Positions 1,887 to 62,806 of a stretch of 64,000 nt of DNA are shown here, one piece after another; position 1 is the stretch's first letter, and the number at the start of each line of letters is the position of its first letter. The notes under the pieces are model-generated. The model was not told the DNA's origin. It worked only from the letters and a program-made list of their open reading frames with translations, and ran no database searches. A program made the translations under genes and the position numbers. Source of the DNA: a virus. The stretch lies in IMG/VR virus record IMGVR_UViG_3300006310_000773; one strand, given 5' to 3'.

Positions 1887-1946
1887 GAGTTATCAACCTG
1901 TAAAGTGTTTAAAATTATTAACTATTTATCTGATTATAACTATTTA

Positions 1947-2516
1947 TCACGCAGCGGCTGCAATAATATCACCCACCTTTGCGGAGTTGCCAGCCTCAGA
2001 TTTTTCTAGAAAATAATCATATCTCCAAGTTACAGTAAATTCTTGAAATCCTTCTGTGCCCCAATCTAATGCAATATCACTTATATTTACTGGCCAAGCC
2101 TGTATTAATTTATAAGTTATTGTTTTTGTGCCATCTTTTTTTAATTGAGTAACGGACAAATCTCTATAATCAGAAGTAGTTTTATTAAATGGTCCATATA
2201 CAGCAGTTCTTGATCCATCAATTCCCCCCGCCATTTGTCTCATCCATGTTATTAACTTCTGTCTTATTTCACCATCATCATTTAAAAATGTCGTATTCCA
2301 TACATCATAAGTTCTAACTCCTGGGAGTTTAATTGCTCTTCCGCGATAATTTACAGGAATTACATTAATATTTGTTCCTGGTAATGATGCCGCTCGACAA
2401 TGTAACATAAAACTTGTTCCTTCGAAACTTCCACTAATCTCAAATAGCGTAGGTCTCGCTCCACCATCCGCTAAAGCGGTTTTAATATCATTAACGTTAA
2501 ATCCCGTTGCTGCCAT
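1947..2516 (-). CDS. gp19: Tail tube protein (gp19-like), paralog 2
   Basis: Motifs GGARPTLF, YRGRAIKLPGVRTYDVWNTTFLND, AWPVNISDIALDW and FQEFTVTWRYDY. Confidence 0.9.
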   Translation of the reverse strand: MAATGFNVNDIKTALADGGARPTLFEISGSFEGTSFMLHCRAASLPGTNINVIPVNYRGRAIKLPGVRTYDVWNTTFLNDDGEIRQKLITWMRQMAGGIDGSRTAVYGPFNKTTSDYRDLSVTQLKKDGTKTITYKLIQAWPVNISDIALDWGTEGFQEFTVTWRYDYFLEKSEAGNSAKVGDIIAAAA

Positions 2517-2528
2517 TATTTCTCCTTA

Positions 2529-3164
2529 TTATGCGACTCCGCCGCCGGCTACTGTATCTATTGTTTTGACCGCATTAGTTGCTGTAGATAATGTTGGTCC
2601 AGAATAAGAATATTGCCAAGTTATAGTAAATGTTTCTATAGTATTTACTGAATCATGACTTAATTCAATTGGTGATATATTATTTGGCCATGCACCATGT
2701 AATTTCATACTATCAATTGTCTTTGTCGTATCACCAGCTAAAGAATAAGATTTAACTAATATTGTACCTAACATACTAGAATGAGGAATCTTCCATGCTC
2801 TTACATTTCCCTCTGCACTATTCATAGCTTCAATCCATCTTTCAATATTTGTTCTAACTTTCATATCTTCATCATTTAATACTGTACATGTCCAATCGCC
2901 AAATGTGGTATCTCCTGCAAAGAAAACCTGCCTCCCGTAATAAGAAACAGGAATTTCTCCATTAATATATCCTGGCATAACCGTTGCATTTACTAGAAAA
3001 TCTAATTTGTCCGTTGCACCGGTCTGCTTTGCCATTCCTGCGGCATCCACTGCGGTTGCTGGTAATGTCATTGTACATGAAAATAAATTAGATCTCGCCC
3101 CTGAGGCTTTAATTGAACTAATAAAAGTATTAATACTAAAATTATTTACTGCTTCATCCGCCAT
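2529..3164 (-). CDS. gp19: Tail tube protein (gp19-like), paralog 1
   Basis: Motifs GARSNLF, YYGRQVFFAGDTTFGDWTCTVLNDED, AWPNNISPIELS and IETFTITWQY. Confidence 0.88.
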   Translation of the reverse strand: MADEAVNNFSINTFISSIKASGARSNLFSCTMTLPATAVDAAGMAKQTGATDKLDFLVNATVMPGYINGEIPVSYYGRQVFFAGDTTFGDWTCTVLNDEDMKVRTNIERWIEAMNSAEGNVRAWKIPHSSMLGTILVKSYSLAGDTTKTIDSMKLHGAWPNNISPIELSHDSVNTIETFTITWQYSYSGPTLSTATNAVKTIDTVAGGGVA

Positions 3165-49038: not shown

Positions 49039-49666
49039 ATATGCGGTTGCATGTATATGTGTTGGTGACAAATACAATGTAAAAGATGTAAAACGTTTAG
49101 AAAAAATGGTTTTTGAAAATACCACATATAATATAAACTTTCGAGTATTTGATGAACCTATTCTTCCCAAATGGTGGACTAAAGTTTTATATCATTCCCC
49201 AATGATAGAACCATTTGAAGAAGAAGTCGTTTTAGCTTTTGATTTAGACGTGATCATAAAAGGAAACATAGATCCCCTATTTGATTGGGTAGAACAACAA
49301 GATTATTTGTGTGCATGTTGGTGTAGGTGGAGAGAACATATGGAAGATTTTGAAAAACGCCGGTCACAAAAAGAATGTTGCACCCCCTATAACTCTTCTA
49401 TATTAGGATGGAAACCAAACAGCAGTTTAAAAGTGTGGGAGAAATTTGAATTTGAAGATATTGAAAAATGTGGTGGATTTGATACATATCTTTGGATGAA
49501 ATATCTTGATCCCATTCGTATACCAGACCATTTTTATTATTCTGCTAGTTATTCTAATTATCAAGAATTAGATTATCCAATAGCCATTTTTAATAAAGGA
49601 TATTCTGATGGACTAGAAAAGGAAGAAATATATTCTACTGTTCCTTGGACTAAAAAATATATCTAA
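49031..49666 (+). CDS. Glycosyltransferase (GT-A)
   Basis: CVGDKY, WWTK, FDLDVII and YNSS; paralog of 46888-47640. Confidence 0.75.
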   Translation: MFKYAVACICVGDKYNVKDVKRLEKMVFENTTYNINFRVFDEPILPKWWTKVLYHSPMIEPFEEEVVLAFDLDVIIKGNIDPLFDWVEQQDYLCACWCRWREHMEDFEKRRSQKECCTPYNSSILGWKPNSSLKVWEKFEFEDIEKCGGFDTYLWMKYLDPIRIPDHFYYSASYSNYQELDYPIAIFNKGYSDGLEKEEIYSTVPWTKKYI

Positions 49667-50334
49667 TACCAAACACCATTAGGACTTTCATGAACTAATC
49701 CTATATCCTCTTTTAAAACTTCATTACAAAATTCCACATCATCATGAAAATCATTATTCATCATAAATCCTATTGAAAATCTATTACAGTCCGTTCCTGC
49801 ACAATGCCAAGCATATTCTTTTTTTTCTTCAACATGATCTAAATGACTAGTAATTTTCATAGATTTAATATTCCATCCTGCAGAATCTTGATATTCTTCA
49901 ATTTTTTTTGAATCACCATAAACTTTAAAAATACCATCACCTGTTTCTGACCAAGAAAATATTATATTTTTGCCTGGGATATTCGCATTATGATGCCAAG
50001 CAATATATCCACCAGGAGGATAATGTTGACATAAAGGACTTCTTCTTGCTCCCACTAAAGAAGCTAATTTAGTTGACAATTTTAAAAGTTCTTCATGAGG
50101 TTCAGAAGCTTCCAGACCAAAATCATTTGATAATATATGTGTAGGCCCGCCAGAGCCTGAATCACCTTCCATTATATTAAACAAATATTCATCAGAAATA
50201 GCCTCTTCTTTTGAAATTATTTCTCTTTTATTTCTATCTTCAATATTTCCATCACTTTTAATAAAATCGAATACAAAAGGTTCAAATAATTTTAAAATTT
50301 TTAAAATATCTTGTGGTATATCTTTTTCAATCAT
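49663..50334 (-). CDS. Fe(II)/2OG oxygenase-like protein
   Basis: YPPGGYIAWHHN ... WHCA ... RFSIG. Confidence 0.6.
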   Translation of the reverse strand: MIEKDIPQDILKILKLFEPFVFDFIKSDGNIEDRNKREIISKEEAISDEYLFNIMEGDSGSGGPTHILSNDFGLEASEPHEELLKLSTKLASLVGARRSPLCQHYPPGGYIAWHHNANIPGKNIIFSWSETGDGIFKVYGDSKKIEEYQDSAGWNIKSMKITSHLDHVEEKKEYAWHCAGTDCNRFSIGFMMNNDFHDDVEFCNEVLKEDIGLVHESPNGVWY

Positions 50335-51058
50335 GCCAACCTGTTCCTTTGGGATAACTTAAAAATACAATATCTGAATAATTAACATTTTCTATTTCAC
50401 AATCATATCCTGGTGCTGTAAAATTCCATAAACAATCGTCATTTTTTGTTGTATTAAAATACCAATTCCATTTTATATCATTTCTGTACCATTCATCTTC
50501 TTTATCACATAACATTAAATGTAATGGAAATTGATCCCACATTTCAACAGGACCTTTCTCATATTTAAAATCCCATCTTGAATGCCAATTATGCTTCATC
50601 TTCCATTGCCAATTATTCCACCATTCCTCCATAAATGTTTTCATTTTTTTATTATTTTTCCAAACAAAAGCACCACCATGAGGTCTTTCTTCTTCATGAA
50701 TGTTCCACCAACATGCTGATGCACAATAAGGTCTAATTTTCGTAAAAACTATATCATTATCACAAAGTGCTTCAAATACATTATTTGCATTGTCTGATAA
50801 ACAAACTACATCAGCATCTAAAAAACATGTAATATCATAGGGGGTTTTTGTTAATGCCCACAATTTAGCCCTGATTGTTTTAGGAGCACCACCAATAACA
50901 TTGTCAAATATATGATTTCCTGGATCTAAGATCCATTCATTGTCAGTAACTAATGTGATTGGATATTGTGTATATTCTTTTATGCTGTCGGCGAGGAGTT
51001 GTGCCGCAGTAAGAAATCTTTTATTTTTGGAAGCGACAACAAGAAATCCATTATTCAT
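50327..51058 (-). CDS. Glycosyltransferase (GT-A, GT8-like); likely start MNNGF at 51058
   Basis: LADSIK, KLWALTKTPYDITCFLDADV and WDQF. Confidence 0.75.
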   Translation of the reverse strand: MNNGFLVVASKNKRFLTAAQLLADSIKEYTQYPITLVTDNEWILDPGNHIFDNVIGGAPKTIRAKLWALTKTPYDITCFLDADVVCLSDNANNVFEALCDNDIVFTKIRPYCASACWWNIHEEERPHGGAFVWKNNKKMKTFMEEWWNNWQWKMKHNWHSRWDFKYEKGPVEMWDQFPLHLMLCDKEDEWYRNDIKWNWYFNTTKNDDCLWNFTAPGYDCEIENVNYSDIVFLSYPKGTGWHD

Positions 51059-51518
51059 TTTCTTCAATTGCTGGTTTGAGAACATTTCCCCATTCAGTAA
51101 GACCATGAATTGGATCACTGATTGATTTTAGTAATAATACAGTAACCCATGCATTTAATTCTACAAGATTTGTTGATTTTCTTATTTTGGAACGAAGAAT
51201 TTTATCTTTAGACTCTTTCACTTCTGATATTTCAAATGCTTTTAATTTTGTATCAAATAATGTTTTTAAATCATCTTGAGCTTTATCTGATTCTTCTTCT
51301 TTTTTTTGATTTATTATTTTTCTTTGAGAATGGGCATGTGAGAAATCATCTATTTCTTTAGGAGTAAATTTTTTGAAAAATTCTTCCCAATGTTCTGTTC
51401 CTACAGAGGTTTGTATCGAATATGTATCATCATCATTTGCGTTTTTTAATAAAATTGCAATAGAGGTTTTTTCAGAATTAGTCCAAATTCCTTCAACCAC
51501 TTCATCACTAAATATCAT
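51051..51518 (-). CDS. Hypothetical phage protein (possible fibre assembly helper)
   Basis: ORF directly downstream of the repeat-bearing virion-like gene; LFDTKLKAFEI..V motif. Confidence 0.5.
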   Translation of the reverse strand: MIFSDEVVEGIWTNSEKTSIAILLKNANDDDTYSIQTSVGTEHWEEFFKKFTPKEIDDFSHAHSQRKIINQKKEEESDKAQDDLKTLFDTKLKAFEISEVKESKDKILRSKIRKSTNLVELNAWVTVLLLKSISDPIHGLTEWGNVLKPAIEENE

Positions 51519-51534
51519 AATTTATCCTATTATA

Positions 51535-52629
51535 TTATCCAATTCTCTTATAAAGATTATAAGCGTTTATAACGTTAGAGCTTCCATCATTTTGAATTGT
51601 AGCTCCTGTCCAATACCCAGTATATTGTCCAGTATATTGCCCGCTATATTGTGTACCATATTGTCCAGTATACCACGGCCCGTATCGAGCTCCACCAAAA
51701 TTTCCATATTGTACTCTATATTGTCCTGACCACTGACCAGTATATTGTCCGGTATATTGTCCGCTATATTGTGTAGAATATTGTTGATTTGCTACAGAAC
51801 ACATATAGTCAGTGAATCCCCCAACTTGTGTCCAAGTTCCAGATCCAGATGCTGATCCCGTTTTTATTTCATAATCTCCCACATTATTTCCACCACTGCC
51901 TCCAGTAATACGATTTATCCAATGTGCGACTAATGTTTCTATTTCCGCATCTGTCATTTCTTGAACATCTCCACCAGTTCCCTTATATTTTACTGGTTGA
52001 AAGCTTCCCACACTACCTGTAGAAGTTTTTCTCCAAAGATAAATATTTGTGCTATGTGAATCTTGTGCGGTGGTTTGTGCATAGTCTATATGTTCTCCAC
52101 CAGAAGGGGGGTTAGTTCCTGTTGTAACATTTATCCACGTTCCTCCTAATGAACCTGAGGGCTCGCTTGCTCCCAAATAATATGTACCAACTCCTGTATT
52201 ACTTCCCGTTAAAACATATACTTCTTGACAACATCTCATAATATCATCTACCAATTTAGCGGCATTCATTTCTTGTAAAACGCCCGATCCTTCCCAAGCT
52301 AAAGGCCACACCTCTCCTCCTGTGGCTTCTGCAGAATTATCATTCGCTGCAAGACCATATTCACTGATTGTAGAAGATCCACTACCAGTAGGATGATACC
52401 CCACAGCATCATCTCTTTTAGTATCAATGAAGTATCCTAAATTTCCAGTTGTAGTTGTTGCTCTTAATTGAATGTTTCCGCGTTGTGCATCAGATTGGTC
52501 ACTTGCCCATTTTGCTAAAATAACAGGAACAATTTTATCCTTTATATCAGCATCTGTCATTTCTCTTAAACTGCTGTTACCTGGGTCTAAATCTGATACC
52601 CACAACGGTCTGTTATCACCTGCCGCCAT
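51535..52629 (-). CDS. Virion/fibre-associated protein with three internal repeats and a C-terminal (QY/WxG)n aromatic repeat
   Basis: Gly/Ser/Thr-rich; three P..-(L/V)(R/Q)EM repeats; QYSTQYSGQYTGQYTGQWSGQY...YTGQYGTQYSGQYTGQYTGYWTG. Confidence 0.65.
   Translation of the reverse strand: MAAGDNRPLWVSDLDPGNSSLREMTDADIKDKIVPVILAKWASDQSDAQRGNIQLRATTTTGNLGYFIDTKRDDAVGYHPTGSGSSTISEYGLAANDNSAEATGGEVWPLAWEGSGVLQEMNAAKLVDDIMRCCQEVYVLTGSNTGVGTYYLGASEPSGSLGGTWINVTTGTNPPSGGEHIDYAQTTAQDSHSTNIYLWRKTSTGSVGSFQPVKYKGTGGDVQEMTDAEIETLVAHWINRITGGSGGNNVGDYEIKTGSASGSGTWTQVGGFTDYMCSVANQQYSTQYSGQYTGQYTGQWSGQYRVQYGNFGGARYGPWYTGQYGTQYSGQYTGQYTGYWTGATIQNDGSSNVINAYNLYKRIG
51604..51786 (-). repeat. 12-bp-period coding repeat, including two 47-bp direct repeats (51617-51663 and 51737-51783)
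   Basis: Recurrent tatattg unit every 12 bp; the two 47-mers are 120 bp apart and differ at 4 positions. Confidence 0.9.
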
Positions 52630-52642
52630 ATTTTATCCTTTA

Positions 52643-53629
52643 TTATGGTCCTAATCTTGTTCCTGAGGTATTGAATACACCAAAAGTAACCCATTGTGCT
52701 AATCCATTTCCGTCAGAATCTTGTAACAATTTATACTGTGCGGGAGATCCGCCTGAAATTGTAACAGTATTAGATAAAGTTACAGTATTTCCATGTCCCA
52801 TTGTTATAGCTACATCTCTACCCAATCCACCAAGAAGACCACTATCAATAATGACTTCTTGTGCTGCATTCATTGTAATAGTATCTTCTGCTTCAGAATT
52901 TTGAATAATATTTCCGGATAATTTAAGCTTATCAGCAGTTACTTGTACGGTTCCGTCTACAGCATTATCAATGGTTTCTCCGTTGCCAAATGTAATAGTA
53001 TTTCCACCAAATGATACATTATCTGTTATCTCCCATTTGGATCCTGAATCATTCCACAATATACTATGATCAGTCGCTCCATCATTTACTTGAATTCCAG
53101 CACCAGTAGCAGTTGCTGTAGTTTTTATCGCCGCATTTGATAATTCAATAGTTTTGTCTGTAGTTACAAGAGTTGTTGATTCTACTTTAGTTTGTGTACC
53201 CTGAACAGTTAAATTTCCTGTAATAACTGTATGGGCCGCCGCTAATTGTAAATGAGAAGTTGTGGCTGTGATTTGAGATGTATTAACAAATATTCTCTCA
53301 TTCCCTGCACCAGCATCTCCTGCATAAATTTTTATTTCATCTTCATCATTACCCCATCCTTCATGGACTGTAATTTTTGTATCTTGATCTTTATCTATTA
53401 AATCATTTAATGCTATCCACTCCGCATCATGATATCCTTCATATTTTCCTAAAGTTGAATTATATCTAACTTGACCAGTGTTCGGACCATACACTCCCGC
53501 GGGTCTTTGAGCAGTGGTTCCAACAGGAACGGTCATATAACCAGTAGTGTTAAAAATCGTGTTTCCTGTAATTACCTGATCACCATCGATATCAACTGTT
53601 TGTGATAATTCATAAGCTCGTGATGTCAT
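52643..53629 (-). CDS. Tail fibre-like structural protein
   Basis: VPVGTTAQRP...GQVRYNSTLGKYEGY module, GNLTVQGT, and G/T/S-rich composition. Confidence 0.7.
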   Translation of the reverse strand: MTSRAYELSQTVDIDGDQVITGNTIFNTTGYMTVPVGTTAQRPAGVYGPNTGQVRYNSTLGKYEGYHDAEWIALNDLIDKDQDTKITVHEGWGNDEDEIKIYAGDAGAGNERIFVNTSQITATTSHLQLAAAHTVITGNLTVQGTQTKVESTTLVTTDKTIELSNAAIKTTATATGAGIQVNDGATDHSILWNDSGSKWEITDNVSFGGNTITFGNGETIDNAVDGTVQVTADKLKLSGNIIQNSEAEDTITMNAAQEVIIDSGLLGGLGRDVAITMGHGNTVTLSNTVTISGGSPAQYKLLQDSDGNGLAQWVTFGVFNTSGTRLGP

Positions 53630-53634
53630 TTTTA

Positions 53635-54150
53635 TTATTCCTTCGTTTTATTTTTAGTAATCCAATTGTCGATGGATGTCCAATCGACCCAATCTTCTAA
53701 TTGATTTAATGCTTTAAAGGTCATATTTTGTAATCCTCCAAAATTAGGAGAAAATAGATCATTGTCTATCATATCACCCGCATCCATTTTTGTAATATCT
53801 AATTCTACAATACTATCATTTAATATATTTATGTCATTTAATGATTCTTCGTGCTTACTCTGATCAACTGCCCAAGTATTTGTAGCTGGGTCATGTGTTC
53901 CATATTTATTTAATATTTCTGCTCTATTATTTAAATAAATTTGATGATGTTGTTTAATTGCTCTTGCGCATATAAACAATTTCCAAAAAATTGCAGTTTT
54001 GTCCCAATCTCGTTGTAAATATGCACTTGTCTGAAAATATTTTGTCCATAATTCATTTATAAAAATGACATATTCTTCATCAGTAAAATATGCATATCTA
54101 ATTTTCACATTTTTATCATTATTTACAACTTTTTCTTTTTTATTCTTCAA
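53635..54150 (-). CDS. Hypothetical protein (possible fibre chaperone)
   Basis: ORF between two fibre genes. Confidence 0.45.
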   Translation of the reverse strand: MKNKKEKVVNNDKNVKIRYAYFTDEEYVIFINELWTKYFQTSAYLQRDWDKTAIFWKLFICARAIKQHHQIYLNNRAEILNKYGTHDPATNTWAVDQSKHEESLNDINILNDSIVELDITKMDAGDMIDNDLFSPNFGGLQNMTFKALNQLEDWVDWTSIDNWITKNKTKE

Positions 54151-56584
54151 TTTCTTCCATTAATATTTTATATTTTTTACCTGTCAAATTATTTGTTAAT
54201 GACAAGTAATCACTTTCCTCGACGACTTTCCAATCGCCACGTTCATTTTTCAAATTTAAGTCAGAAGTATATATGTTAGCCCATCTTAAAGAATCACTTC
54301 CCATATCTCTCGTTCCATTAGCATCAGGTAAAACATCTGAAGCGAAAAAACCTCCAGACATATCAATATTCGAGTTAAATGTCGCTAATCCTGTAAAAGA
54401 AGATGTAGTTCCCACCAAAAGATTATCTTCAATTTCTATTGCTCCACAATGGAAATTTTCATAATCCGCTATTGTTATATTTCCTGCTGCTGATCCATCA
54501 TCTCCTACACGACATGTTGAAAATTCATCCAAACTTTCATCCCAAATAAATGCCGTATTTCCAAGATCATTAGTTCCTCTAATGAATACAAATCCGGTAT
54601 CATAAGCATTATTTGTTGGTACTGCTGAAAAATTATTAAGAACTATAAACGGATCTGTTATAGTCATAGTATCAGAACTAACTTCAGTAGTTGTTCCTGT
54701 AATATGTAAATTACCAATAAGAGTTGTGTCTTGACCTGACGGGGTTATTGTTAATTCACCAGCCGCATTCGTCGCAAAAGTAGTATTTGCCGCAAAACTA
54801 TGTAATAATTTTAATTGAATTGCATCAGTTCCATTACCCTTAACATCTAATGTAACTGCTGGTTCTTTAACGCCAATACCAACTCTATCATTATGTACAT
54901 CAACAGCAAATGTCGCGTTAGCATGTGATACAGGATCAACACCAATATAAGTATTAGCTTGAACAGAAGACCATCCGGCGGTGTTTGCCCATCTATCTTT
55001 AGTATAAACATCAGTATTTTCAAAAGAAGTCCACGCCCAAGATTCAACTATATTACCTACTGTTTGAGCTGGAATAGTAACAGAAGTTGCATTAGTTGCT
55101 GTCAATAAACTTTGATCAATTTTCACTCCTTCACTAAATACTTCAATCATTCCAGGAGTATATCCACCATTAATCGTAAACGTTGTCTGACTAGCGGTTG
55201 CTACAAATCTCTCTTTTGTCATTGCCGCTTTGGATAAATCTGTTGCAGCCATTGACATAACATCTATTATATCATCTACTCCAACGGTAAAGTTAAGAAA
55301 AGTTATAGCACTTCCTAATACATCAGTGTCATAATCAGCAGAATCCAGTTTAATACCGTTCACGAATACTTGTAACCAATTTGGATTATATTGTGCACTT
55401 ACTGAGGTAGTTGAATCTGTCGGTGCCTCAATTCTTGTATTATATACTGTTGTGGATGGAGAGAGTTGATACCACGCCGCTGCTGTATTTGAGTAATACT
55501 CCATTTGTCCTTTACCGGCATCATACTCTTTATTAAATCTAAGCATACCATCTTCAAGATCAGTCGATGGTCTTTGTGCTGAAGATCCTGATGGAACAGT
55601 AATAGAAGTCTCACCATCTCTTCCTAAAATATTATGACAAAATACGTTGTTAGCCCATACTGATTGTACTCTCTGGTCTGTTTTTCCTATATGAAGTTCA
55701 GTTCCGCTACCGGACCAACTACTTGGTAAAAAATATCCATCATCAGTATCACTTCCAATATACCATCTCTCTGTTCCTTCAGTATAAAATTTAATTTCGT
55801 CTTCATCTCCGCCATGAGTAGTTTCAACAGTTATTTTTGTGTCTTGGTCTGAATCAATAGCTCCACCTAATGACATAAAAGTATTAGAAACATGATCATA
55901 ACCCTCATATCTGTCTAATGTTGTATTATATCTAATTACTCCGCGTAAAGAATGATCTGCATTTGTGGTACTAGATAAATCTGTAATTTCTGGTCTATCT
56001 GAAGTTTCGCCAGAAGGTATTTTTAAATGTGAAGTTGTGTTTGCTCCAACCGTGTCCCATACATAAAGGTTTTTCCATCTTTCCCCATTATTACCTAAAC
56101 TAATTGCAGTATTTGTTAAACCAATTGGAGGTAATGGTGTAATATCTGCGGCAATGTCTCCCACTATTGTTACAGTATCTACGTCTGCATCATCACCTAA
56201 TTGAATATTTCCTTCTGCTTTAACTACTCCTGCTACGTAAACTGATCCGCCGACATTTAAACTTTTTTGAACTGAAATACCACCTTTAAATATAGCGGAG
56301 CCTGTGGACAAACTTGCTCCAAAATCATCACTTGTACCATCTGTCACATCTCGTAAACTATTGGAGGTTATTCCACCTTCTCCTGTTGTATTGAATTCTA
56401 TTGATCCATTTGCTATTAAATCACCAATTCTTATTCCACCATTTCCATCATCATCTCTTCTTACTACTGTATTTGCGATACCTGCGTCTGTTCCAGCATT
56501 AACGTCGGCAATGACCAAGTTGGTCTGATTACGCCACGTTTCAAAGGTATCAGTTAAAGCTACGTTTGCGAATGAAGTTGCCAT
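54140..56584 (-). CDS. Tail fibre protein
   Basis: DTFETWRNQTN N-terminus, repeated PSG...RP...G.IRYN modules, VFVNGIKL Ig-like repeats, and a WANIYTSDLNLKN...TGKKYKI C-terminus typical of marine T4-like fibres. Confidence 0.8.
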   Translation of the reverse strand: MATSFANVALTDTFETWRNQTNLVIADVNAGTDAGIANTVVRRDDDGNGGIRIGDLIANGSIEFNTTGEGGITSNSLRDVTDGTSDDFGASLSTGSAIFKGGISVQKSLNVGGSVYVAGVVKAEGNIQLGDDADVDTVTIVGDIAADITPLPPIGLTNTAISLGNNGERWKNLYVWDTVGANTTSHLKIPSGETSDRPEITDLSSTTNADHSLRGVIRYNTTLDRYEGYDHVSNTFMSLGGAIDSDQDTKITVETTHGGDEDEIKFYTEGTERWYIGSDTDDGYFLPSSWSGSGTELHIGKTDQRVQSVWANNVFCHNILGRDGETSITVPSGSSAQRPSTDLEDGMLRFNKEYDAGKGQMEYYSNTAAAWYQLSPSTTVYNTRIEAPTDSTTSVSAQYNPNWLQVFVNGIKLDSADYDTDVLGSAITFLNFTVGVDDIIDVMSMAATDLSKAAMTKERFVATASQTTFTINGGYTPGMIEVFSEGVKIDQSLLTATNATSVTIPAQTVGNIVESWAWTSFENTDVYTKDRWANTAGWSSVQANTYIGVDPVSHANATFAVDVHNDRVGIGVKEPAVTLDVKGNGTDAIQLKLLHSFAANTTFATNAAGELTITPSGQDTTLIGNLHITGTTTEVSSDTMTITDPFIVLNNFSAVPTNNAYDTGFVFIRGTNDLGNTAFIWDESLDEFSTCRVGDDGSAAGNITIADYENFHCGAIEIEDNLLVGTTSSFTGLATFNSNIDMSGGFFASDVLPDANGTRDMGSDSLRWANIYTSDLNLKNERGDWKVVEESDYLSLTNNLTGKKYKILMEEIEE

Positions 56585-56594
56585 GTGTTAATCC

Positions 56595-56798
56595 CTAATA
56601 GTTAATAAATTTTTTAATTTCTAATATTTCCGCTTTTATTTCAGAAATTTCCGTCTTTAGTGTATTTATCTCCGCTTGTCTACTGTCAGCTTGCCTTTTC
56701 ACTAATCTATGGGCAGTTAATGCATCTATATCATTTCTTAATATTGCATTGCTTTCAGTATCTTTCAGAAATCCTGGAGCGTCTGTTAAAATTTTCAT
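56595..56798 (-). CDS. Small coiled-coil protein
   Basis: KDTESNAIL...EINTLKTEISEIK; contains a GATAAATA motif upstream of the fibre gene. Confidence 0.6.
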   Translation of the reverse strand: MKILTDAPGFLKDTESNAILRNDIDALTAHRLVKRQADSRQAEINTLKTEISEIKAEILEIKKFINY

Positions 56799-59700
56799 GA
56801 ATCTAATGCTACAGCTCTTAAATCCTTAATTTTTGGTGGATCTATATTACTTGAAGATGTTAAAACAACTTTTATTGCAAAATATTTAAAATCTTTAAAA
56901 GTTGTAGATCCAACAGTATATGCAGCAGAATCATCTGCTGTTTTATAATTATATGTCAAGAAATCTGACTCATTTGCAGAATATACACTTGAATCGGTTT
57001 CTTGTGTCATTTTATTCCAATATTTATCATCAAATGATTCAGAATCAGTTGAACTAAGTGCTTTATAATAAATATTAATATTTGAGGTACTAGGTTTATA
57101 TGCTCTTATATATACTCTAACATCTTCAGCGTCAAACCCGTCTTGTAATGTCACTCTTCTTGTTATATATCTCGCTATTCCATTTCCACCTTCTCTATCC
57201 GTTTCTGCTGAAATTGTTACAGATCCACTTGTACCACCAGACAAAGTAGCAGTAATATTATCAAAATATCCACTTCCCTCCGCTGAAGCATATGCATCTG
57301 TAATTGCTCCTGTACCATCTGTGACTAATGTAACTCCCGCTCCCGTTCCTGTTGTTCCAGAAAGTGTGATATTACTAGTACCGTTTGCATATCCTGTTCC
57401 TCCCCCAACTACAGCCACATTATTATTACTAATTCCACCATTGTTAATATTATTTTCAACAGTTATTAAATTTAATCTAGATAAATCTATAATTGGTGAA
57501 ACATCTGAATTTGTTGTGGACATTTTCACTTGTATTTTCATATCTGGATCAGTACCACCATCATATTTACCTGTTCTAATAGTTTTTCTACTATCATGCT
57601 TAATATTTTTATTTGATGTAAATTTAGTAAAAGAATTATCTCTAACAGCAATATGAGGATATGCTTCATTTTCAGTAGTTGTTTGATAAAAATAATCTAT
57701 TACTGAATCTGAAAATTTCAATTCTGATGTACTTAATTTCATCAAATCATATGCCGTATTAGCTGTTCCATTTGAAAGAGGATGTGGAATTACATCAAAT
57801 TGACATAAATTAGAATTAAAAGATGTTAATTGAAAAGAACATTTTTGTGTTTTAAACATCAAGCTTCTATTAGTAACCGGAGTCCATTTACTAGAATTAT
57901 TTGTAACAAAAAAGTCTCCAACTTCAGGACCCTTTCCTGCTTTTGTATTTGTAGTATCAGTGTTAGTTACCATATTTCCTTCAACAGCGCTATAAACTTT
58001 ATATTTTGGACTATTTGTCATTAAAACAATAGCGAATTCGCCAGGTGGTAAATATACTGGTGATGGAAATTTAAATGTCGTTCCACTTGATGATTTTGTT
58101 GTATCAGGAGAAGAAGAGTCAACAGTTATTTCATCAGGAACAAGAACTTTTTCACCAAATGGTAGGACTTGAGCAACGCTTGGTGTTCCGTCTGTCATTG
58201 GTCTTACTTGTACTGTTACAGGCAAATAAGTATCCTTTTGTGAAAAATAGAATGTAACATTTCTTAAAAACATCCCATTTGGATATCTAGACTCATCTAT
58301 CACTATAGACTGTGCCATCGGATTCACAAAATTCGAAGAAGAACTTTTATCAGAAACAGCTGATTTTGTCACAACAGCGGATCTAATATCTTGTCTTCTC
58401 ACTAAAGAAGATCTTGTAGAAATTATACTTCCATCTGATACAGACTCCATACCCTTTATATGAAATGTTTTTTCAGCTACAGAATTAGTTTTAGATAATG
58501 TATTGTCAGCATGATCAGTAAGTCTTACTAATCTTTCTCCCATTCTAAATTGTCCAGCTGTAAATTCAAAATTTCCAACTACAGTACCATTTATATCAGA
58601 TTTAAGATTATTAACATATGTTGTTGGTACGGCTGATAAAGTCGCATTTGCTGTTACTGTTCCACTCGCAGAAACATAATCTGCTTCCACAATTGTTGAT
58701 GTACCTGTCGCAGTCCAATCACCAATTGTATTCGCAAGCATTAATGTAGTATTTCCCGTATAATCTACATGAACCAATGTTCCAGAAATTGAACTATTCG
58801 CACTTACTGTTACATATTCTCCCTCATTCGCTATAAATTCTGAGTTTCCTCCGTCAGTAATGGATAATGTCACTCCAGTATTAGCCTGCTCTGTTAAATT
58901 TACACCATCTACATATAAGTAATGATCAGTACTTGGTTTTAATCCTTGTGCTTTAAATAAAACAGTTTGTTTTCTATTCCATGAAACAATAGTATCATTA
59001 ACTTGTTTATTGTTTACTGTTTTCTTAACTGATTCTGGTTGATCTTTTGATAAAATCCCATCTCTTGTATTTTGTTGATCTATAGTCTTGGCTGATCTAT
59101 CTACTTTAGTAGAAGATGTTGATTTTTTATTCGCTTTTGAAACATCATCATTATTAATCTCTACACCACTCCAATTTTTTGACCAATTGTCCCATTGTGT
59201 ACCAAATCCATAATTATATTTACCAGATTCCCAATTATCACTACCTCCAGTTAAATTTATTAATACCTCTGGGCGCCTTCCATCATAAAACCAGGTATCA
59301 CTAGGATTTGTCATAGTTAAAATTCCATTAAACATACCAGAACCAAATGGATTTACTTCTTCAGTCGTTGTTGTAGCGGGTTGATCAATAAATCCCGTGT
59401 CTGTATAAGCAACAGAAACCAAATCTCCTGTTTTCATTATATTCGCACTATTAACATCAAGTTTAAATTTAAAATTATCAGATTCAAATGTCGGTCTTAA
59501 AAGTGTTTGATCAAAATCTATCGCTATTCTATAATCATCATCTAAAACATCACCTATTGCATGTCCCGCAAATTGGTCTACAAGTATACCATTCTTAAAT
59601 CTTTCCACTCCACCATCTGTAAATATCGCTTGTTCCTTTGCATCTTTTTCCAAAAATGAGAGAGAAGTAAAATATTCAAGTTGTTCAACTCTTTTTTCTA

Positions 59701-62700
59701 TTTTACCAATATCCCTCATAGTAAATCTTTTATTTTCAATATATTGTAAATTTACATCAGTAACCTCAAATGTATATTCAGGAATATCTGCGATATAAAT
59801 TGTCATAGAATCTTCATCATCTGCCGGAACAATAGGATCAACTGAAGGATTTCCTTCAATTACACCAAATTCCCTATCTTTTGTTACAACAATTTTATCT
59901 TTTCTTGGTAAATAAAATTGTACATCTGTCGTTAAAACAACATCTGAATCTGGTAATCTTGGTAGAACTACAGATTGATTAATTGTCGCAGAATCTAAAG
60001 CAAATGACGCAGATTCATCACCATTTGTTCTCTTTGGTCTAAAATCTAAACAATCTCTTAAACTTACTGTTTTTCCAGTTATAGGACTTGTGTATGATGG
60101 GATATCAGAAAATTCTACGCCCGCAGTTGCTCCAAGATAAGTATCTACAGTAAATGGGCCGTCTGCAGCCTGATGTACAAAATAATCAAATACCGCCACT
60201 ATTGGCACCGCCGGTGCGGATTGACCTGGTTTCAATTTAACAAATCCAAAATCATATAAATTATCTCTCTGGCCAGTTTCAAAATTATATTTGTCCGTTA
60301 TATTATTAGTATCACCAGCACTTGCACATGCTGTTGTAAACAATTCAGTAGTAAGGCTTGCAATATCAGTGTCTGGAGATTTAACAATTGCTTTCAAAGA
60401 TTTTACATCTGATGTTCTTAAACTAATCGTCGTATTAGCATAATCCGCAGCAGTAGTTGCTTTATATTGTCCTAATCCTCTTAAAGTTGTATTAGTATCA
60501 CCACTAGTAAAGGATGTTGTATTTGAATTAACAATAGTTTTAGTTCTAAAGGTAGATGCGAGAGGAGATAATGAAATAGCCGCAGTTATTGTGGCAGTGA
60601 AATTATCATTACTTCCCACACCCGTATCTAAAGCCATTGAAGTACCAGCTGCGTCTACTGAAGAGGTAGCACCAGCACCAAAATTAATAATGTCTCCAAT
60701 GTTACGCGGACACAATGCACCAATACTCCCTGTAATAGTACACACAACATGATTAAGTAAATCTGCAGATCCTAAAGAAGAACCCTTACCCGGCAAAAAC
60801 ACTCCACCAGTTTGAGTAATAGATGCAAGACCATTAGTAAAAGTTACACTAAAAAATTGCTGTTTTACTGTGTAATCAAATTTAGAAGTGACAAGAGGAT
60901 TTAAGGTTTTTACTACTGCTTGTGGTAATTCATATATTAAAGAACTTCTATCAGTATCAAATATTTTAGTAAGACTATTTGGATCTAATTGATCAACTTT
61001 ACCAAATTGTGAAATGTCTGCATACTTTTCAATATTTCCAGAACCATCTGATTCTATAACACTTTCCAAATATTTTGCGGTAAAATCAATTTCACACGTA
61101 TCACTAACTCCAACATCTGCTAAAAATGCATTTGCTAAAGTAATAGTATTTCCTTGATGATCTGTGATGAGTCTTGATACTCCATCATTATAACCACTTG
61201 TCATTTTAATTGAAGCACCAGCATATGCTAAAGAAACATTAGTGGATTTTGTAGAATTTAAAACAAGTGTTGTTCCTCCTGCAGCAATGCCCGTATGAAC
61301 ATTAGACGTTATACTTGACATTTTGGTATCATACAAATATAAATCATAAGTACCATTTGTTGCCCCAGGAGTACCAGAAAAATAATCTAATTGTCTAGGT
61401 CTAGCAGTTCCTATCTTTGATGTATTATATGTTGCTGCGGAAGTAGTATTGATATTTACTGTTCTTACACAATGTAAATCTATTGGTGCTTGTGTAGCGA
61501 CATTAAATGAACCATTCGCACTATCAATTCTCAAATTATTTCCAAAATTTGTATTCATAACAAATTCTATCGCATTGTTAGTGTCTCTACCCTTTCTTAT
61601 ATCAGCATATTCTACGGCAACACTTTCATAATCATATCCTCTTACATAAGCTTTGCCTGGTTCCAATCCAACAGACAATTTATCTAAATTATGAATAAAT
61701 TGTGTTTGTCCTGATCCAATAGGAGCAGAAACAGTCATATTCTCATCATCTGCGATTGCCGTAACTGTAGTTGTTGCAGAATTAAAAGATCCATTTGTTA
61801 AATAAACAGAATCACCAATTCTAAAATCTTTTAAAAATTTAGATTCAAGTCCAACTATTGATGCTGTTGTACTGGCTAATGTCCATCCACTCGCATTTTT
61901 ATGAGTATTTAAATTAGCCAAAAATGGTTTAACAGTATAGTTTCCTGATTCATCATAAGTTCTTCTTGCTAAAGTGTCATCTAATGCGGAATATACTGGA
62001 TATTTTACAATTTTTGTTGGAAGACCATTAACAACTCTTAATAATTCTATAAAATTTTGTTCTGAAATAGTAGTGAGTGATTTTTTACCCAATATTAAAG
62101 CAATTTTATATCTATTTGCTCCAGGTGCATTAACGTTAAAAGACCCTGAAGCATTATCTAACAATGAAGAATCATCAGTATTATTTGTAATACTTTCAGT
62201 TATAGTTAATCCAACTTTATATGATGGTGTCGTTGCAAATTTTTCTAAAACAATAGTTTGGGCGTCAACTGTGACAAAAAATCCGTTTATATAATAAATT
62301 CCAGCAGAAATACTTGCAATAGAACCATCTCCTGTAATGGTTCCGGCATCTGCGGTTTGTGCACTTATACCAGTACTGCCTGCAACATGTATCGTTGCTG
62401 ATGTTGTAGTAATTGTATCAGAACCAGAATATACTCCTATTAAAACGGGAGCATCGCTACCTTCAGCCTCTACAGTAGTAATTACATCAAAGGTAATTGT
62501 GTCTGCACCACTAAGTTGAATTTTTTGATTTGCGAATGTTGATGCAGTTTCAGTTGATGCTAATCTAATATAACTAACGTTAGTATTTAAATTAATCTGT
62601 CCACCTGTAACAATACTACCATCCTTATAAAAGGAATCGCCCAATCTGGATATTTGATTTTGTAAAATTGTCTGAAGTTGTGTTAACTCTCTAACCTGAA

Positions 62701-62806
62701 GAGAAACTCCAGGTTGAAATAACATTCTAAGAAATTTCTTAGTTTCATCATAATCATCAAAATAAGGACTTTGCTGTAAAGATGAAAGTAAACTTAATGT
62801 AGCCAT
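56795..62806 (-). CDS. Large baseplate/tail structural protein (DUF4815, VrlC-like)
   Basis: PYFDDYD...LFQPG..LQVRELTQLQ, APGANR, LARRTYDESGNY, RFTMRDIGKIEKR and KNGILVDQF; adjacent to gp8. Confidence 0.85.
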   Translation of the reverse strand: MATLSLLSSLQQSPYFDDYDETKKFLRMLFQPGVSLQVRELTQLQTILQNQISRLGDSFYKDGSIVTGGQINLNTNVSYIRLASTETASTFANQKIQLSGADTITFDVITTVEAEGSDAPVLIGVYSGSDTITTTSATIHVAGSTGISAQTADAGTITGDGSIASISAGIYYINGFFVTVDAQTIVLEKFATTPSYKVGLTITESITNNTDDSSLLDNASGSFNVNAPGANRYKIALILGKKSLTTISEQNFIELLRVVNGLPTKIVKYPVYSALDDTLARRTYDESGNYTVKPFLANLNTHKNASGWTLASTTASIVGLESKFLKDFRIGDSVYLTNGSFNSATTTVTAIADDENMTVSAPIGSGQTQFIHNLDKLSVGLEPGKAYVRGYDYESVAVEYADIRKGRDTNNAIEFVMNTNFGNNLRIDSANGSFNVATQAPIDLHCVRTVNINTTSAATYNTSKIGTARPRQLDYFSGTPGATNGTYDLYLYDTKMSSITSNVHTGIAAGGTTLVLNSTKSTNVSLAYAGASIKMTSGYNDGVSRLITDHQGNTITLANAFLADVGVSDTCEIDFTAKYLESVIESDGSGNIEKYADISQFGKVDQLDPNSLTKIFDTDRSSLIYELPQAVVKTLNPLVTSKFDYTVKQQFFSVTFTNGLASITQTGGVFLPGKGSSLGSADLLNHVVCTITGSIGALCPRNIGDIINFGAGATSSVDAAGTSMALDTGVGSNDNFTATITAAISLSPLASTFRTKTIVNSNTTSFTSGDTNTTLRGLGQYKATTAADYANTTISLRTSDVKSLKAIVKSPDTDIASLTTELFTTACASAGDTNNITDKYNFETGQRDNLYDFGFVKLKPGQSAPAVPIVAVFDYFVHQAADGPFTVDTYLGATAGVEFSDIPSYTSPITGKTVSLRDCLDFRPKRTNGDESASFALDSATINQSVVLPRLPDSDVVLTTDVQFYLPRKDKIVVTKDREFGVIEGNPSVDPIVPADDEDSMTIYIADIPEYTFEVTDVNLQYIENKRFTMRDIGKIEKRVEQLEYFTSLSFLEKDAKEQAIFTDGGVERFKNGILVDQFAGHAIGDVLDDDYRIAIDFDQTLLRPTFESDNFKFKLDVNSANIMKTGDLVSVAYTDTGFIDQPATTTTEEVNPFGSGMFNGILTMTNPSDTWFYDGRRPEVLINLTGGSDNWESGKYNYGFGTQWDNWSKNWSGVEINNDDVSKANKKSTSSTKVDRSAKTIDQQNTRDGILSKDQPESVKKTVNNKQVNDTIVSWNRKQTVLFKAQGLKPSTDHYLYVDGVNLTEQANTGVTLSITDGGNSEFIANEGEYVTVSANSSISGTLVHVDYTGNTTLMLANTIGDWTATGTSTIVEADYVSASGTVTANATLSAVPTTYVNNLKSDINGTVVGNFEFTAGQFRMGERLVRLTDHADNTLSKTNSVAEKTFHIKGMESVSDGSIISTRSSLVRRQDIRSAVVTKSAVSDKSSSSNFVNPMAQSIVIDESRYPNGMFLRNVTFYFSQKDTYLPVTVQVRPMTDGTPSVAQVLPFGEKVLVPDEITVDSSSPDTTKSSSGTTFKFPSPVYLPPGEFAIVLMTNSPKYKVYSAVEGNMVTNTDTTNTKAGKGPEVGDFFVTNNSSKWTPVTNRSLMFKTQKCSFQLTSFNSNLCQFDVIPHPLSNGTANTAYDLMKLSTSELKFSDSVIDYFYQTTTENEAYPHIAVRDNSFTKFTSNKNIKHDSRKTIRTGKYDGGTDPDMKIQVKMSTTNSDVSPIIDLSRLNLITVENNINNGGISNNNVAVVGGGTGYANGTSNITLSGTTGTGAGVTLVTDGTGAITDAYASAEGSGYFDNITATLSGGTSGSVTISAETDREGGNGIARYITRRVTLQDGFDAEDVRVYIRAYKPSTSNINIYYKALSSTDSESFDDKYWNKMTQETDSSVYSANESDFLTYNYKTADDSAAYTVGSTTFKDFKYFAIKVVLTSSSNIDPPKIKDLRAVALDS

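What the first reader, a model, noticed from the sequence alone, without database searches (positions are those of the whole stretch)
51535..52629. Periodic aromatic tetrapeptide array (Q-Y/W-x-G) resembling a multi-core RiPP precursor embedded in a structural protein
Seen: NQQYSTQYSGQYTGQYTGQWSGQYRVQYGNFGGARYGPWYTGQYGTQYSGQYTGQYTGYWTG. An aromatic residue falls every 4 aa in two arms around a non-repetitive centre. The gene is directly upstream of, and co-oriented with, the island's glycosyltransferase and oxygenase genes. Established: cyclophane-forming rSAM/SPASM enzymes cross-link aromatic rings to nearby residues, and Ser/Thr/Tyr are O-glycosylation acceptors. Inference: this is the modified substrate, or an aromatic-ladder hairpin or amyloid-like needle used for adhesion.
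Basis: partly seen in the sequence, partly recalled or inferred. Interest (0 to 1): 0.85.

Follow-up and report, generated by a model that had tools for sequence, protein, structure and literature searches.

The report
Tyrosine-glycine hairpin fibre protein of phage
The flagged gene is not an antibiotic-like peptide precursor. It is one short member of a large, undescribed family of marine phage fibre-like proteins whose stalk is an out-and-back ribbon of four-residue tyrosine/glycine repeats, and which always sits beside the same sugar-transferase-like and hydroxylase-like genes.

Summary
ORF 51535-52629(-), 364 aa, carries 14 aromatic residues at period 4 (Y284 to W340), missing only at G312.

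The protein is a folded, conserved protein, not a RiPP precursor. Three homologous ~100-aa domains (hhalign E 1e-13 to 1e-19) form a confident, possibly beta-prism-like body. The (Y/F)-(T/S)-G-x array is inserted inside the third domain, so the chain must run out and come back.

The family has at least 218 clusters, all uncultured viral, with no Pfam, PHROG or PDB match. Arm lengths range from 4 to 135 units. The two arms stay matched: 48 of 66 two-array proteins differ by one unit or less, against a permutation mean of 22.

The radical-SAM link fails. Only 8 of 63 related loci hold any CxxxCxxC ORF.

A four-gene block is almost invariant (60 of 63 loci, and 17 of 17 in a second set). It runs repeat protein, 155-aa helical partner, glycogenin/GT8-like transferase, prolyl-hydroxylase-like protein with His-x-Asn.

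Best reading: a variable-length fibre or adhesin of a T4-like phage, probably matured or modified by that trio. The modification is untested.

The scan reached the same cassette reading earlier on other DNA (e1-5388324, e1-5748200).

The parts
51535..52629 (-). Repeat protein ('rep'), 364 aa: three homologous domains plus an inserted (Y/W)-x-G-x hairpin
   Evidence: ORF. 24 homologues and 218 representative clusters. AF2 model mean pLDDT 80.3, pTM 0.77.
52294..52614 (-). Domain 1 (residues ~6-112): RPL-strand, EMTDADI helix, beta strands, conserved G-x-HP
   Evidence: hhalign d1 vs d2: 97.9%, E 4e-13. d1 vs d3: 98.1%, E 1e-13. pLDDT is 73-95 over this stretch.
52009..52293 (-). Domain 2 (residues ~113-207), ending in the strand IYLWRKTS
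   Evidence: hhalign d2 vs d3: 99.2%, E 1e-19.
51781..52008 (-). Domain 3, first part (residues ~208-283), up to FTDYMCSVANQQ
   Evidence: With the arms cut out, it aligns with domain 2 over the whole domain.
51697..51780 (-). Arm 1: seven 4-residue units, Y284 to F311
   Evidence: AF2 gives a strand at 279-288.
51685..51696 (-). Centre or turn, G312-G313-A314-R315. A conserved G-P-(W/Y) follows at 317-319.
   Evidence: This is the only in-phase position without an aromatic residue. pLDDT is below 50 for 291-333 in the monomer model.
51601..51684 (-). Arm 2: seven 4-residue units, Y316 to A343
   Evidence: A 61-nt direct repeat of arm 1 at 87% identity. AF2 gives a strand at 336-345.
51538..51600 (-). 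Domain 3, closing strands (T344 to G364; ATIQ...YNLYKRIG), homologous to the end of domain 2
   Evidence: hhalign aligns NAYNLYKRIG with TNIYLWRKTS. The family consensus is GATI.SS.ET.ST..LWLRTA.
51051..51518 (-). p155: conserved 155-aa partner with a small N-terminal domain, a charged helix and the motif LF.AKL.AFEI.E.K.SKN..L.SKIRK
   Evidence: Found directly after rep in 60 of 63 loci. Alignment. No Pfam or PHROG hit.
50327..51025 (-). GT8/glycogenin-like GT-A glycosyltransferase. The ORF was listed from GTG 51118, but the family alignment points to ATG 51025.
   Evidence: D101-x-D103 is invariant. The profile matches glycogenin-1 and -2 around K-L...DxD at E 0.007-0.03. 6 of 12 members give sub-threshold Pfam Glyco_transf_8 hits, best E 3e-4.
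49663..50334 (-). Prolyl-hydroxylase-like double-stranded beta-helix protein with invariant W-H114-x-N116 ... H177 ... R185
   Evidence: Alignment. AF2 pLDDT 78.6. VIA Z 9.8 to P. putida P4H, 9.6 to Trichoplax PHD and 9.4 to Dictyostelium PHD. Foldseek E 1e-4 to P4H and AlkB. 5 of 12 members give weak Pfam 2OG-FeII_Oxy hits.
52643..56584 (-). Upstream fibre genes of 328 aa and 814 aa, with a 171-aa ORF between them, in the same transcription direction
   Evidence: PHROG hits to baseplate wedge and virion structural protein families, E 1e-11 to 2e-16.
56795..62806 (-). VrlC-like 2003-aa structural protein, which marks the start of the host-recognition cluster
   Evidence: phrog_358, 1101 bits. 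The HRC is defined between VrlC and gp14 in PMC7029224.

Best explanation
The gene encodes a virion fibre or adhesin component of an uncultured marine T4-like (pelagimyophage-type) phage.

Three tandem homologous domains pack into one compact body with pseudo-threefold character, possibly beta-prism or lectin-like. Between the last two strands of the third domain the chain makes an excursion. It runs out for seven (Y/W)-x-G-x units, turns at GGAR/GPW, and returns for seven units. The two arms therefore lie antiparallel as a beta-ribbon stalk held together by an aromatic/glycine ladder. The stalk very probably bundles with copies from other chains, which would explain why the monomer model is unsure of its distal half.

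In relatives the same stalk ranges from 4 to 135 units per arm and can carry a tip domain, so the family is a length-adjustable fibre.

The three genes that always follow are a helical partner, a glycogenin-like GT8 transferase and a prolyl-hydroxylase-like protein. They most likely fold and/or hydroxylate and glycosylate this protein during late morphogenesis.

Shown: the domain repeats, the insertion topology, the arm matching and the gene linkage. Inferred: virion location, oligomer state, receptor binding and any modification.
For: - Three internal domains: hhalign 97.9-99.2%.
- With the arms removed, domain 3 aligns end to end with domain 2, so both arm ends sit in one domain.
- AF2 is confident for the body (pLDDT about 85-95, pTM 0.77) and gives strands 279-288 and 336-345 flanking a low-confidence tip.
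- The weak fold matches all fall on beta-prism-type domains: Z 6.1 for 8b6v, 5.8 for 2qp2, 4.9 for MABP 3tow.
- Arm lengths are matched. 48 of 66 two-array proteins differ by one unit or less, against a permutation mean of 22 and maximum of 33.
- Multi-array patterns are palindromic rather than tandem: mismatch 741 vs 1007, p 0.005, and 1182 vs a null of 1487 +/- 64.
- In one 5'-truncated relative (L058), arms of 134 and 135 units flank a 180-aa non-repeat centre.
- The gene sits in the tail-fibre module between VrlC and the neck and tail genes.
- The order rep, p155, GT8, DSBH holds in 17 of 17 loci found from rep and in 60 of 63 found independently from the DSBH protein, while the flanks vary.
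Against: - There is no proteomic or structural evidence that the protein is in virions.
- No homologue was found in any deposited phage record.
- Beta-prism similarity is only middling (Z about 6), which the tool itself flags as possibly a common arrangement.
- The distal hairpin has pLDDT below 50.
- A unit-by-unit similarity test for antiparallel pairing was uninformative.
- In this particular protein the arms are also direct DNA duplicates, so here their equal length could be historical.
- Phe replaces Tyr in 27% of units family-wide, which argues against every aromatic hydroxyl being a modification site.
- The hydroxylase-like protein has Asn where the iron-binding Asp or Glu should be, so it may not be a conventional oxygenase.
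- Conserved gene order could partly reflect shared descent.
Confidence: 0.6

Rival explanations
1. The repeat is a multi-core RiPP-like substrate. The phage's radical-SAM/SPASM enzymes would cross-link the aromatic rings (cyclophane type), with or without release of peptides.
For: This phage and its closest relatives carry several rSAM genes 5-20 kb downstream in the same island. The aromatic-x-x periodicity superficially recalls three-residue cyclophane motifs.
Against: Only 8 of 63 related loci hold any CxxxCxxC ORF within 7 kb. L011, L013 and L014-L023 have none within 10 kb. The repeat is an insertion in a folded domain with no leader or cleavage logic, and arms reach 540 residues. From my own knowledge of triceptide chemistry, the ring is linked to the beta-carbon of the residue at +2. 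Here that residue is Gly, which has no beta-carbon.
Confidence: 0.04
2. The protein is an ordinary unmodified fibre. The p155, GT8 and hydroxylase-like genes act on something else, such as host LPS or another glycan (as proposed for pelagimyophage GT8 genes), and stay adjacent only through inherited gene order.
For: PMC7029224 interprets the GT8 genes of the host-recognition cluster as O-chain modifiers. The frequent Tyr-to-Phe changes and the His-x-Asn site weaken a simple hydroxylation story. No modification has been observed.
Against: The block keeps its order and tight spacing, with overlaps or gaps of 25 bp or less, across relatives as low as 28% identity. Genes on both sides are swapped freely. 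When rep is duplicated, the trio still follows the last copy. p155 and the GT8-like gene were found only next to rep in these loci. The oxygenase-like protein without the trio occurred only in 5 paralogue contexts (L073, L075, L076, L078, L086).
Confidence: 0.28
3. The tetrapeptide arrays do not form a two-stranded ribbon. They would stack instead as a beta-solenoid or amyloid-like (curli-type) fold, or act as a flexible low-complexity linker.
For: Some relatives show a 22-residue super-period, made of five units plus GSRN or GAKT. The distal array has low pLDDT. Pelagimyophages encode curli-system homologues.
Against: Other relatives have more than 130 uninterrupted units with no super-period. 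Matched and palindromic arm lengths are what an out-and-back pairing predicts, not a solenoid. The protein has no signal peptide.
Confidence: 0.08

Closest known systems
Needle domain of the T4 long-tail-fibre tip, gp37 (Bartual et al. 2010 PNAS 107:20287, recalled from memory; iron sites also described in PMC6957217)
   Same: It is a T4-type phage fibre in which each chain runs out to a tip and returns. The stalk is therefore built from two equal antiparallel arms with a short sequence periodicity, and it needs helper proteins encoded next to it.
   Different: gp37 uses His-x-His iron-binding repeats, whereas this protein uses (Y/F)-(T/S)-G-x. No sequence or fold match was found: the BFVD gp37 row has E 0.72. 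The base here is a three-repeat domain, not a collar. The neighbours are enzyme-like rather than the gp38 and gp57A chaperones.
Virus-encoded hydroxylation and glycosylation of repeat fibres: Mimivirus collagen with L230 and related enzymes (PMC5802723, PMC9546862, PMC9614988) and PBCV-1 collagen prolyl hydroxylase (5c5t, Z 8.0)
   Same: A viral repetitive structural protein is encoded alongside a 2OG-oxygenase-fold protein and a glycosyltransferase.
   Different: The repeat period is 4, not the collagen G-X-Y triplet. The repeat unit has no Pro or Lys. The virus is a phage, not a giant virus. The enzymes are separate small proteins, and the oxygenase-like one has His-x-Asn.
Glycogenin and Gat1-type GT8 transferases, and the Skp1 hydroxyproline glycosylation pathway (PhyA prolyl hydroxylase 6t8m; Gat1 6mw5)
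   Same: The GT8-like neighbour matches glycogenin around K-L...DxD. The oxygenase-like neighbour ranks Dictyostelium PHD at Z 9.4. Glycogenin glucosylates a tyrosine, and the putative substrate here is tyrosine-rich.
   Different: The matches are sub-threshold (E 0.007-0.3; Pfam scores below gathering). The acceptor residue is unknown. The C-terminal His...KPW motif of GT8 is not kept in this clade.
Host recognition cluster of pelagimyophages and cyanomyophages (Zaragoza-Solas et al. 2020, PMC7029224)
   Same: The genomic setting is the same: a variable island between VrlC and the neck genes, with tail fibres, GT8 glycosyltransferases and rSAM cassettes.
   Different: The passages of the paper retrieved here (term search) describe neither the repeat protein nor the fixed four-gene block. 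The paper assigns the GT8 genes to host LPS modification.
Mycobacteriophage virion glycosylation (Freeman et al. 2023, PMC10527164; reference seen, paper not read)
   Same: Phage-encoded glycosyltransferases sit beside structural genes and glycosylate virion proteins.
   Different: The phage group, enzymes and target proteins (capsid and tail tube C-termini) are all different. No hydroxylase is involved.

Membership tests
RiPP precursor for rSAM/SPASM cyclophane (triceptide-type) maturases | The precursor gene is conserved together with its maturase | tested here: not met
   Only 8 of 63 loci hold any CxxxCxxC ORF within 7 kb. None is present in L011, L013 or L014-L023.
RiPP precursor for rSAM/SPASM cyclophane (triceptide-type) maturases | A short leader-plus-core peptide, not part of a folded protein | tested here: not met
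   The repeat is inserted inside the third of three folded domains. Family members range from 314 to at least 1911 aa.
Phage tail fibre / out-and-back needle (T4 gp37-like) | Encoded in the tail-fibre module, with a fibrous repeat of variable length | tested here: met
   The gene lies between VrlC-like and fibre genes on one side and tail and neck genes on the other. Arms range from 4 to 135 units.
Phage tail fibre / out-and-back needle (T4 gp37-like) | Two equal antiparallel arms from one chain | tested here: met
   Both arm ends lie in one domain. Arm lengths are matched and array patterns palindromic.
Phage tail fibre / out-and-back needle (T4 gp37-like) | His-x-His iron-binding repeats, or sequence or fold homology to gp37 | tested here: not met
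   There are no HxH repeats in the sequence. No significant match in the PDB by sequence or by fold. A fold miss is not proof of difference.
Phage tail fibre / out-and-back needle (T4 gp37-like) | Homotrimer present in the virion | not testable with these tools
   Only monomer prediction was available, and there are no proteomic data.
Beta-prism (MABP / MACPF C-terminal domain type) for residues 1-283 plus 344-364 | Three homologous sub-domains | tested here: met
   hhalign E 4e-13, 1e-13 and 1e-19.
Beta-prism (MABP / MACPF C-terminal domain type) for residues 1-283 plus 344-364 | Fold similarity to solved beta-prisms | tested here: inconclusive
   VIA Z 6.1 (8b6v), 5.8 (2qp2) and 4.9 (3tow), about 119 residues aligned at rmsd 3.8. 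Foldseek found nothing.
Collagen-like hydroxylated/glycosylated viral fibres | G-X-Y triplet repeat with Pro or Lys acceptors | tested here: not met
   The period is 4. The unit consensus is (Y71/F27)-(T41/S22/A14)-(G58/R12)-x.
Collagen-like hydroxylated/glycosylated viral fibres | Adjacent hydroxylase-fold and glycosyltransferase genes | tested here: met
   linkage; identities.
GT8 glycosyltransferase (neighbour gene 50327-51025) | DxD motif and GT8 profile match | tested here: inconclusive
   DxD is invariant. The match to glycogenin has E 0.007. Pfam Glyco_transf_8 matches only 6 of 12 members and below the gathering score.
2OG-Fe(II) oxygenase (neighbour gene 49663-50334) | Double-stranded beta-helix fold | tested here: met
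   VIA Z 9.8, 9.6 and 9.4 to prolyl hydroxylases. Foldseek E 1e-4.
2OG-Fe(II) oxygenase (neighbour gene 49663-50334) | His-x-Asp/Glu...His iron triad plus an Arg that binds 2OG | tested here: not met
   The invariant residues are H114-x-N116...H177 and R185. Asn replaces the carboxylate in all 12 aligned members.

The most novel reading that the evidence does not exclude
These phages build their host-recognition fibres from a previously unknown tetrapeptide (Y/F)-(T/S)-G-x out-and-back ribbon of tunable length. They then decorate it with a dedicated hydroxylase-like plus glycogenin-like enzyme pair, for example O-glycosylation of the Tyr/Thr ladder or of a hydroxylated turn proline. That would be a phage counterpart of collagen or extensin maturation. 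The conserved His-x-Asn site would mark a new catalytic variant of the 2OG-oxygenase fold.
Probability: 0.3. Interest if true: 0.85.

Novelty: new variant of a known kind. Interest (0 to 1): 0.62.

Why it matters
The family is abundant. There are at least 218 clusters at 50% identity, and at least 581 viral contigs carry the linked oxygenase-like gene. It lies in the host-recognition region of uncultured marine and freshwater T4-like phages, including pelagimyophage-type genomes. It is nevertheless absent from Pfam, PHROGs, the PDB and the deposited phage records searched here.

The fixed partnership with a glycogenin-like transferase and a prolyl-hydroxylase-like protein gives a directly testable case of enzymatic maturation of a phage fibre. 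It also challenges the published view that these GT8 genes modify host LPS.

The repeat itself is a simple, length-scalable beta-ribbon motif that could interest protein designers.

Tried and rejected
- The full 25-sequence alignment was too diverse for the search for related loci. Sub-alignments worked.
- Nothing was found for the repeat protein in Pfam or PHROGs, in PDB sequences, or by Foldseek against PDB and BFVD.
- tblastn against the phage collection with the query and with P0014 gave no match.
- The oxygenase-like protein hit only a distant paralogue in Kyanoviridae phage C48C1, in a different context between tail tube and UvsY.
- The ESM Atlas gave only unnamed viral clusters. The phage-fibre families appeared at 0.78, which counts as a lead only.
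- A unit-by-unit similarity test between arms in antiparallel and parallel register was uninformative (mean z -0.4 and -0.1). L058 scored below the null, which might mean complementarity.
- Promoter and terminator scans were at chance level, and no TATAAATA lies near the block.
- The window's own assembly is not held. The nearest record, G001, has one copy.
- The hairpin register (Tyr facing Tyr, or Tyr facing Gly) cannot be decided from sequence.
- Bartual 2010 could not be opened.
Full report
**Observation.** The ORF at 51535-52629 on the minus strand is real and encodes 364 aa.
- Aromatic residues occupy positions 284 to 308 and 316 to 340 in steps of four. All 14 are in one phase, and the only in-phase position without an aromatic residue is G312, inside NFGGAR.
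- The DNA has a 12-nt period. The two arms are 61-nt direct repeats at 87% identity, 120 nt apart.
- In 20,000 shuffles of the protein, a single run of 7 or more appeared 3 times. In shuffles of the repeat segment alone it appeared 18 times. The protein has two such runs.
- The pattern is therefore not chance, and it is conserved in homologues down to 28% identity.

**What the protein is.** Pfam, PHROGs, PDB sequences and the phage collection give nothing, but the protein is far from an orphan.
- The word-indexed search found 24 relatives. The exhaustive search found 218 cluster representatives at E <= 1e-3, 116 of them at E <= 1e-10.
- The alignment shows a motif (RPLK ... L.EMTDAEI ... G.G.Y.L ... 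AP..GTW ... DTR ... LW.RT) written three times.
- Profile-profile comparison of the three segments gives 97.9%, 98.1% and 99.2% probability, with E 4e-13, 1e-13 and 1e-19.
- When the tetrapeptide arrays are cut out of the third segment, the remainder (residues 208-283 plus 343-364) aligns with the second domain from end to end. The closing strand NAYNLYKRIG aligns with TNIYLWRKTS.
- The repeat is therefore an insertion inside a domain. Its two ends must meet, so the chain goes out and comes back.

**Structure prediction.**
- AlphaFold2 with a 53-sequence alignment models the three-domain body confidently (mean pLDDT 80.3, pTM 0.77, body blocks mostly 81-95).
- It places strands at 279-288 and 336-345 on either side of a distal stretch, 291-333, that it cannot place (pLDDT below 50).
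- Foldseek finds no relative in the PDB or BFVD.
- The Foldseek-independent search gives only middling matches, but all fall on beta-prism-type domains. These are the C-terminal domains of Mp2Ba1 (Z 6.1) and Plu-MACPF (Z 5.8), and the MABP domain (Z 4.9). This fits a three-repeat body but is not proof.

**The repeat across the family.**
- The unit consensus from 4,242 units is (Y 71%, F 27%, W 2%) - (T 41%, S 22%, A 14%) - (G 58%, R 12%) - x.
- Arm length ranges from 4 units to 135 units.
- The two arms stay matched. Of 66 complete, non-identical proteins with exactly two arrays, 48 differ by at most one unit. Permuting partners gives a mean of 22 and never more than 33.
- Proteins with several arrays separated by phase breaks show palindromic length patterns such as 6-5-5-5-4-5-5-6, 13-20-20-14 and 23-4-4-5-4-23. 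The mismatch to a palindrome is 1182 against 1487 +/- 64 for shuffled order.
- A palindrome fits better than a tandem duplication: 741 vs 1007, 20 proteins vs 9, p = 0.005.
- One relative (L058, 5'-truncated) has arms of 134 and 135 units around a 180-aa non-repetitive centre.
- Related sequences inflate such statistics. Even so, the range of lengths over which the match holds, together with the insertion topology, makes an antiparallel out-and-back stalk the natural reading.
- A direct test for unit-by-unit relatedness between paired positions gave nothing.
- In this window's protein the arms are also direct DNA duplicates, so its own 7/7 symmetry is weak evidence taken alone.

**Genomic setting.**
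- The window is a T4-like myovirus. It encodes large terminase, tail sheath, three tail-tube paralogues and a baseplate wedge protein.
- It also encodes a 2003-aa VrlC-type protein (phrog_358) followed by two fibre-like genes.
- This is the 'host recognition cluster' described for pelagimyophages and cyanomyophages. That cluster is noted for GT8 glycosyltransferases and rSAM cassettes, which the authors assign to host LPS modification (PMC7029224). The lead to that paper came from earlier finding e1-5729020.

**Neighbours.** I fetched 23 loci with the repeat protein and compared all ORFs with the window.
- Every one of the 17 loci that reach far enough downstream has the same three genes, in the same order and orientation, after the repeat protein. 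They are a ~150-aa protein, a ~240-aa protein and a ~215-aa protein.
- The genes before and after this block differ between loci.
- I then started independently from the third neighbour. At least 581 viral contigs encode a relative, and 80 were fetched.
- Of 63 loci with at least 3.5 kb of upstream sequence, 61 have the GT-like gene, 60 have the small partner and 61 have one or more repeat proteins (14 have two). 60 have all three.
- The exceptions are a paralogue of the third gene in another context.

**What the neighbours are.**
- The ~240-aa protein has an invariant DxD. Its profile matches glycogenin-1 and -2 at the K-L...DxD region (E 0.007-0.03). It gives sub-threshold Pfam GT8 hits in 6 of 12 members. 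Its real start in the window is probably ATG 51025 rather than GTG 51118, by alignment with relatives.
- The ~215-aa protein folds as a double-stranded beta-helix (pLDDT 78.6). Prolyl hydroxylases are its best matches: P. putida P4H Z 9.8, Trichoplax PHD 9.6, Dictyostelium PHD 9.4, and PBCV-1 collagen P4H 8.0. Foldseek gives E 1e-4.
- It keeps both histidines and the 2OG-binding arginine eight residues after the second histidine. It has an invariant Asn where the iron-binding carboxylate should be. Whether it is a working oxygenase is therefore open.
- The ~150-aa protein has a small N-terminal domain, a charged helix and a conserved helical motif. It has no named relatives.

**The RiPP and radical-SAM reading.**
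- rSAM genes accompany only this phage's nearest relatives (L002-L007), plus one rSAM in L008 and L010.
- L011, L013 and L014-L023 have no CxxxCxxC ORF within 10 kb. In the second set only 8 of 63 loci have one.
- The 'core' is part of a folded domain and can be 540 residues per arm.
- From my own knowledge of three-residue cyclophane formation, the residue two after the aromatic supplies the beta-carbon for the cross-link. Here that residue is glycine.
- I therefore reject this reading. Its probability is about 0.04.

**Mechanism proposed.**
- *Shown:* a three-repeat body; a tetrapeptide excursion whose two halves co-vary in length; a position in the fibre module; near-obligate linkage to a helical partner, a GT8-like gene and a P4H-like gene.
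- *Inferred:* the arms pair as an antiparallel beta-ribbon. One face alternates aromatic and glycine, and the other alternates Thr/Ser and a polar residue.
- The AF2 strand limits suggest the register i+j = 624, which sets Tyr opposite Tyr and Gly opposite Gly. A one-residue slip to i+j = 626 would set Tyr over Gly. I could not decide between them.
- At about 3.3 Å per residue, this phage's stalk would be about 9 nm and the longest relatives about 180 nm. Those lengths are in the range of phage fibres.
- The low confidence of the isolated distal ribbon suggests it is stabilised by other chains.
- The three downstream proteins probably chaperone and/or hydroxylate and glycosylate the protein. 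Candidate sites are the Tyr or Thr/Ser ladder, or the conserved Pro in the turn (G-P-W/Y).
- This last step rests only on gene linkage and enzyme resemblance. The 27% Phe and the His-x-Asn site count against the simplest versions.

**Comparison with known systems.**
- The out-and-back topology works like the T4 gp37 needle (from my own knowledge; iron sites confirmed in PMC6957217). There is no homology and no HxH motif.
- The pairing of a repeat fibre with hydroxylase-fold and glycosyltransferase genes works like Mimivirus collagen maturation, but the repeat is not collagen.
- Phage virion glycosylation has a precedent in mycobacteriophages (reference seen; paper not read).
- I found no paper describing this repeat family.

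**Earlier notes of this scan.** Two follow-up reports on other genomes (e1-5388324, e1-5748200) reached the same reading of the trio. They named it a helical partner, a glycogenin-like transferase and a P4H-like protein with His-x-Asn, always behind a Tyr/Gly-repeat fibre gene. My results agree and were obtained before I read them. What this report adds is the domain-insertion topology, the three-repeat body and the arm-matching statistics.

**Verdict.** The RiPP interpretation is wrong. The 'hairpin needle' alternative is well supported in architecture. The link to the glycosyltransferase-like and oxygenase-like genes is a strong genomic association that awaits biochemistry.

Noticed in passing
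window 49663-50334 (-): The prolyl-hydroxylase-like neighbour has an invariant His-x-Asn...His...Arg, not the His-x-Asp/Glu triad. This holds in all 12 aligned members, and the tool's own search pattern, derived from the alignment and fixing that Asn, matched in at least 581 viral contigs. It could be a catalytic variant or a non-oxygenase use of the fold.
   Followed up: partly
window 50327-51118 (-): The listed GTG start of the GT8-like ORF overlaps the 155-aa gene by 68 nt. Relatives start at the MNNGF position, so ATG 51025 is the likely start, 25 nt after the stop of the 155-aa gene.
   Followed up: partly
L058:50-5785 (+); also L068, L070, L071: Giant, 5'-truncated relatives of at least 1841-1911 aa. 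L058 has arms of 134 and 135 tetrapeptide units around a 180-aa non-repeat centre. A second array with 12-residue period (YEGLYERQQDIT) follows, which may pair with an N-terminal part not in the locus.
   Followed up: partly
P0047, P0069 (protein ids): Some relatives punctuate the arrays every five units with a two-residue insert (GAKT, GSRN or GTSA). This gives a 22-residue super-period, and the inserts sit at mirror-image positions in the two arms.
   Followed up: partly
window 1209-3164 (-): Three tandem tail-tube paralogues of 225, 189 and 211 aa all hit phrog_45 at E 1e-39 to 1e-46, next to the sheath gene.
   Followed up: no
L014:13167-14489, L015:13190-14560, L021:13726-15108: In the 325-aa subfamily the trio is followed by a 440-460-aa ORF with no Pfam hit, then a methyltransferase (in L021) and a second GT-like gene, instead of rSAM genes.
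   Followed up: no
L029, L047, L048, L053, L059, L072, L074, L082 and others: 14 of 63 loci carry two repeat-protein genes in tandem (for example 636 + 1168 aa) before a single trio. This is reminiscent of proximal and distal half-fibres.
   Followed up: no
OQ984149.1 18267-18920 (L024:8971-9624): The only deposited phage with a relative of the oxygenase-like protein is Kyanoviridae phage C48C1 (26% identity). There the gene sits between a tail-tube gene and uvsY, without the repeat protein or the GT.
   Followed up: partly
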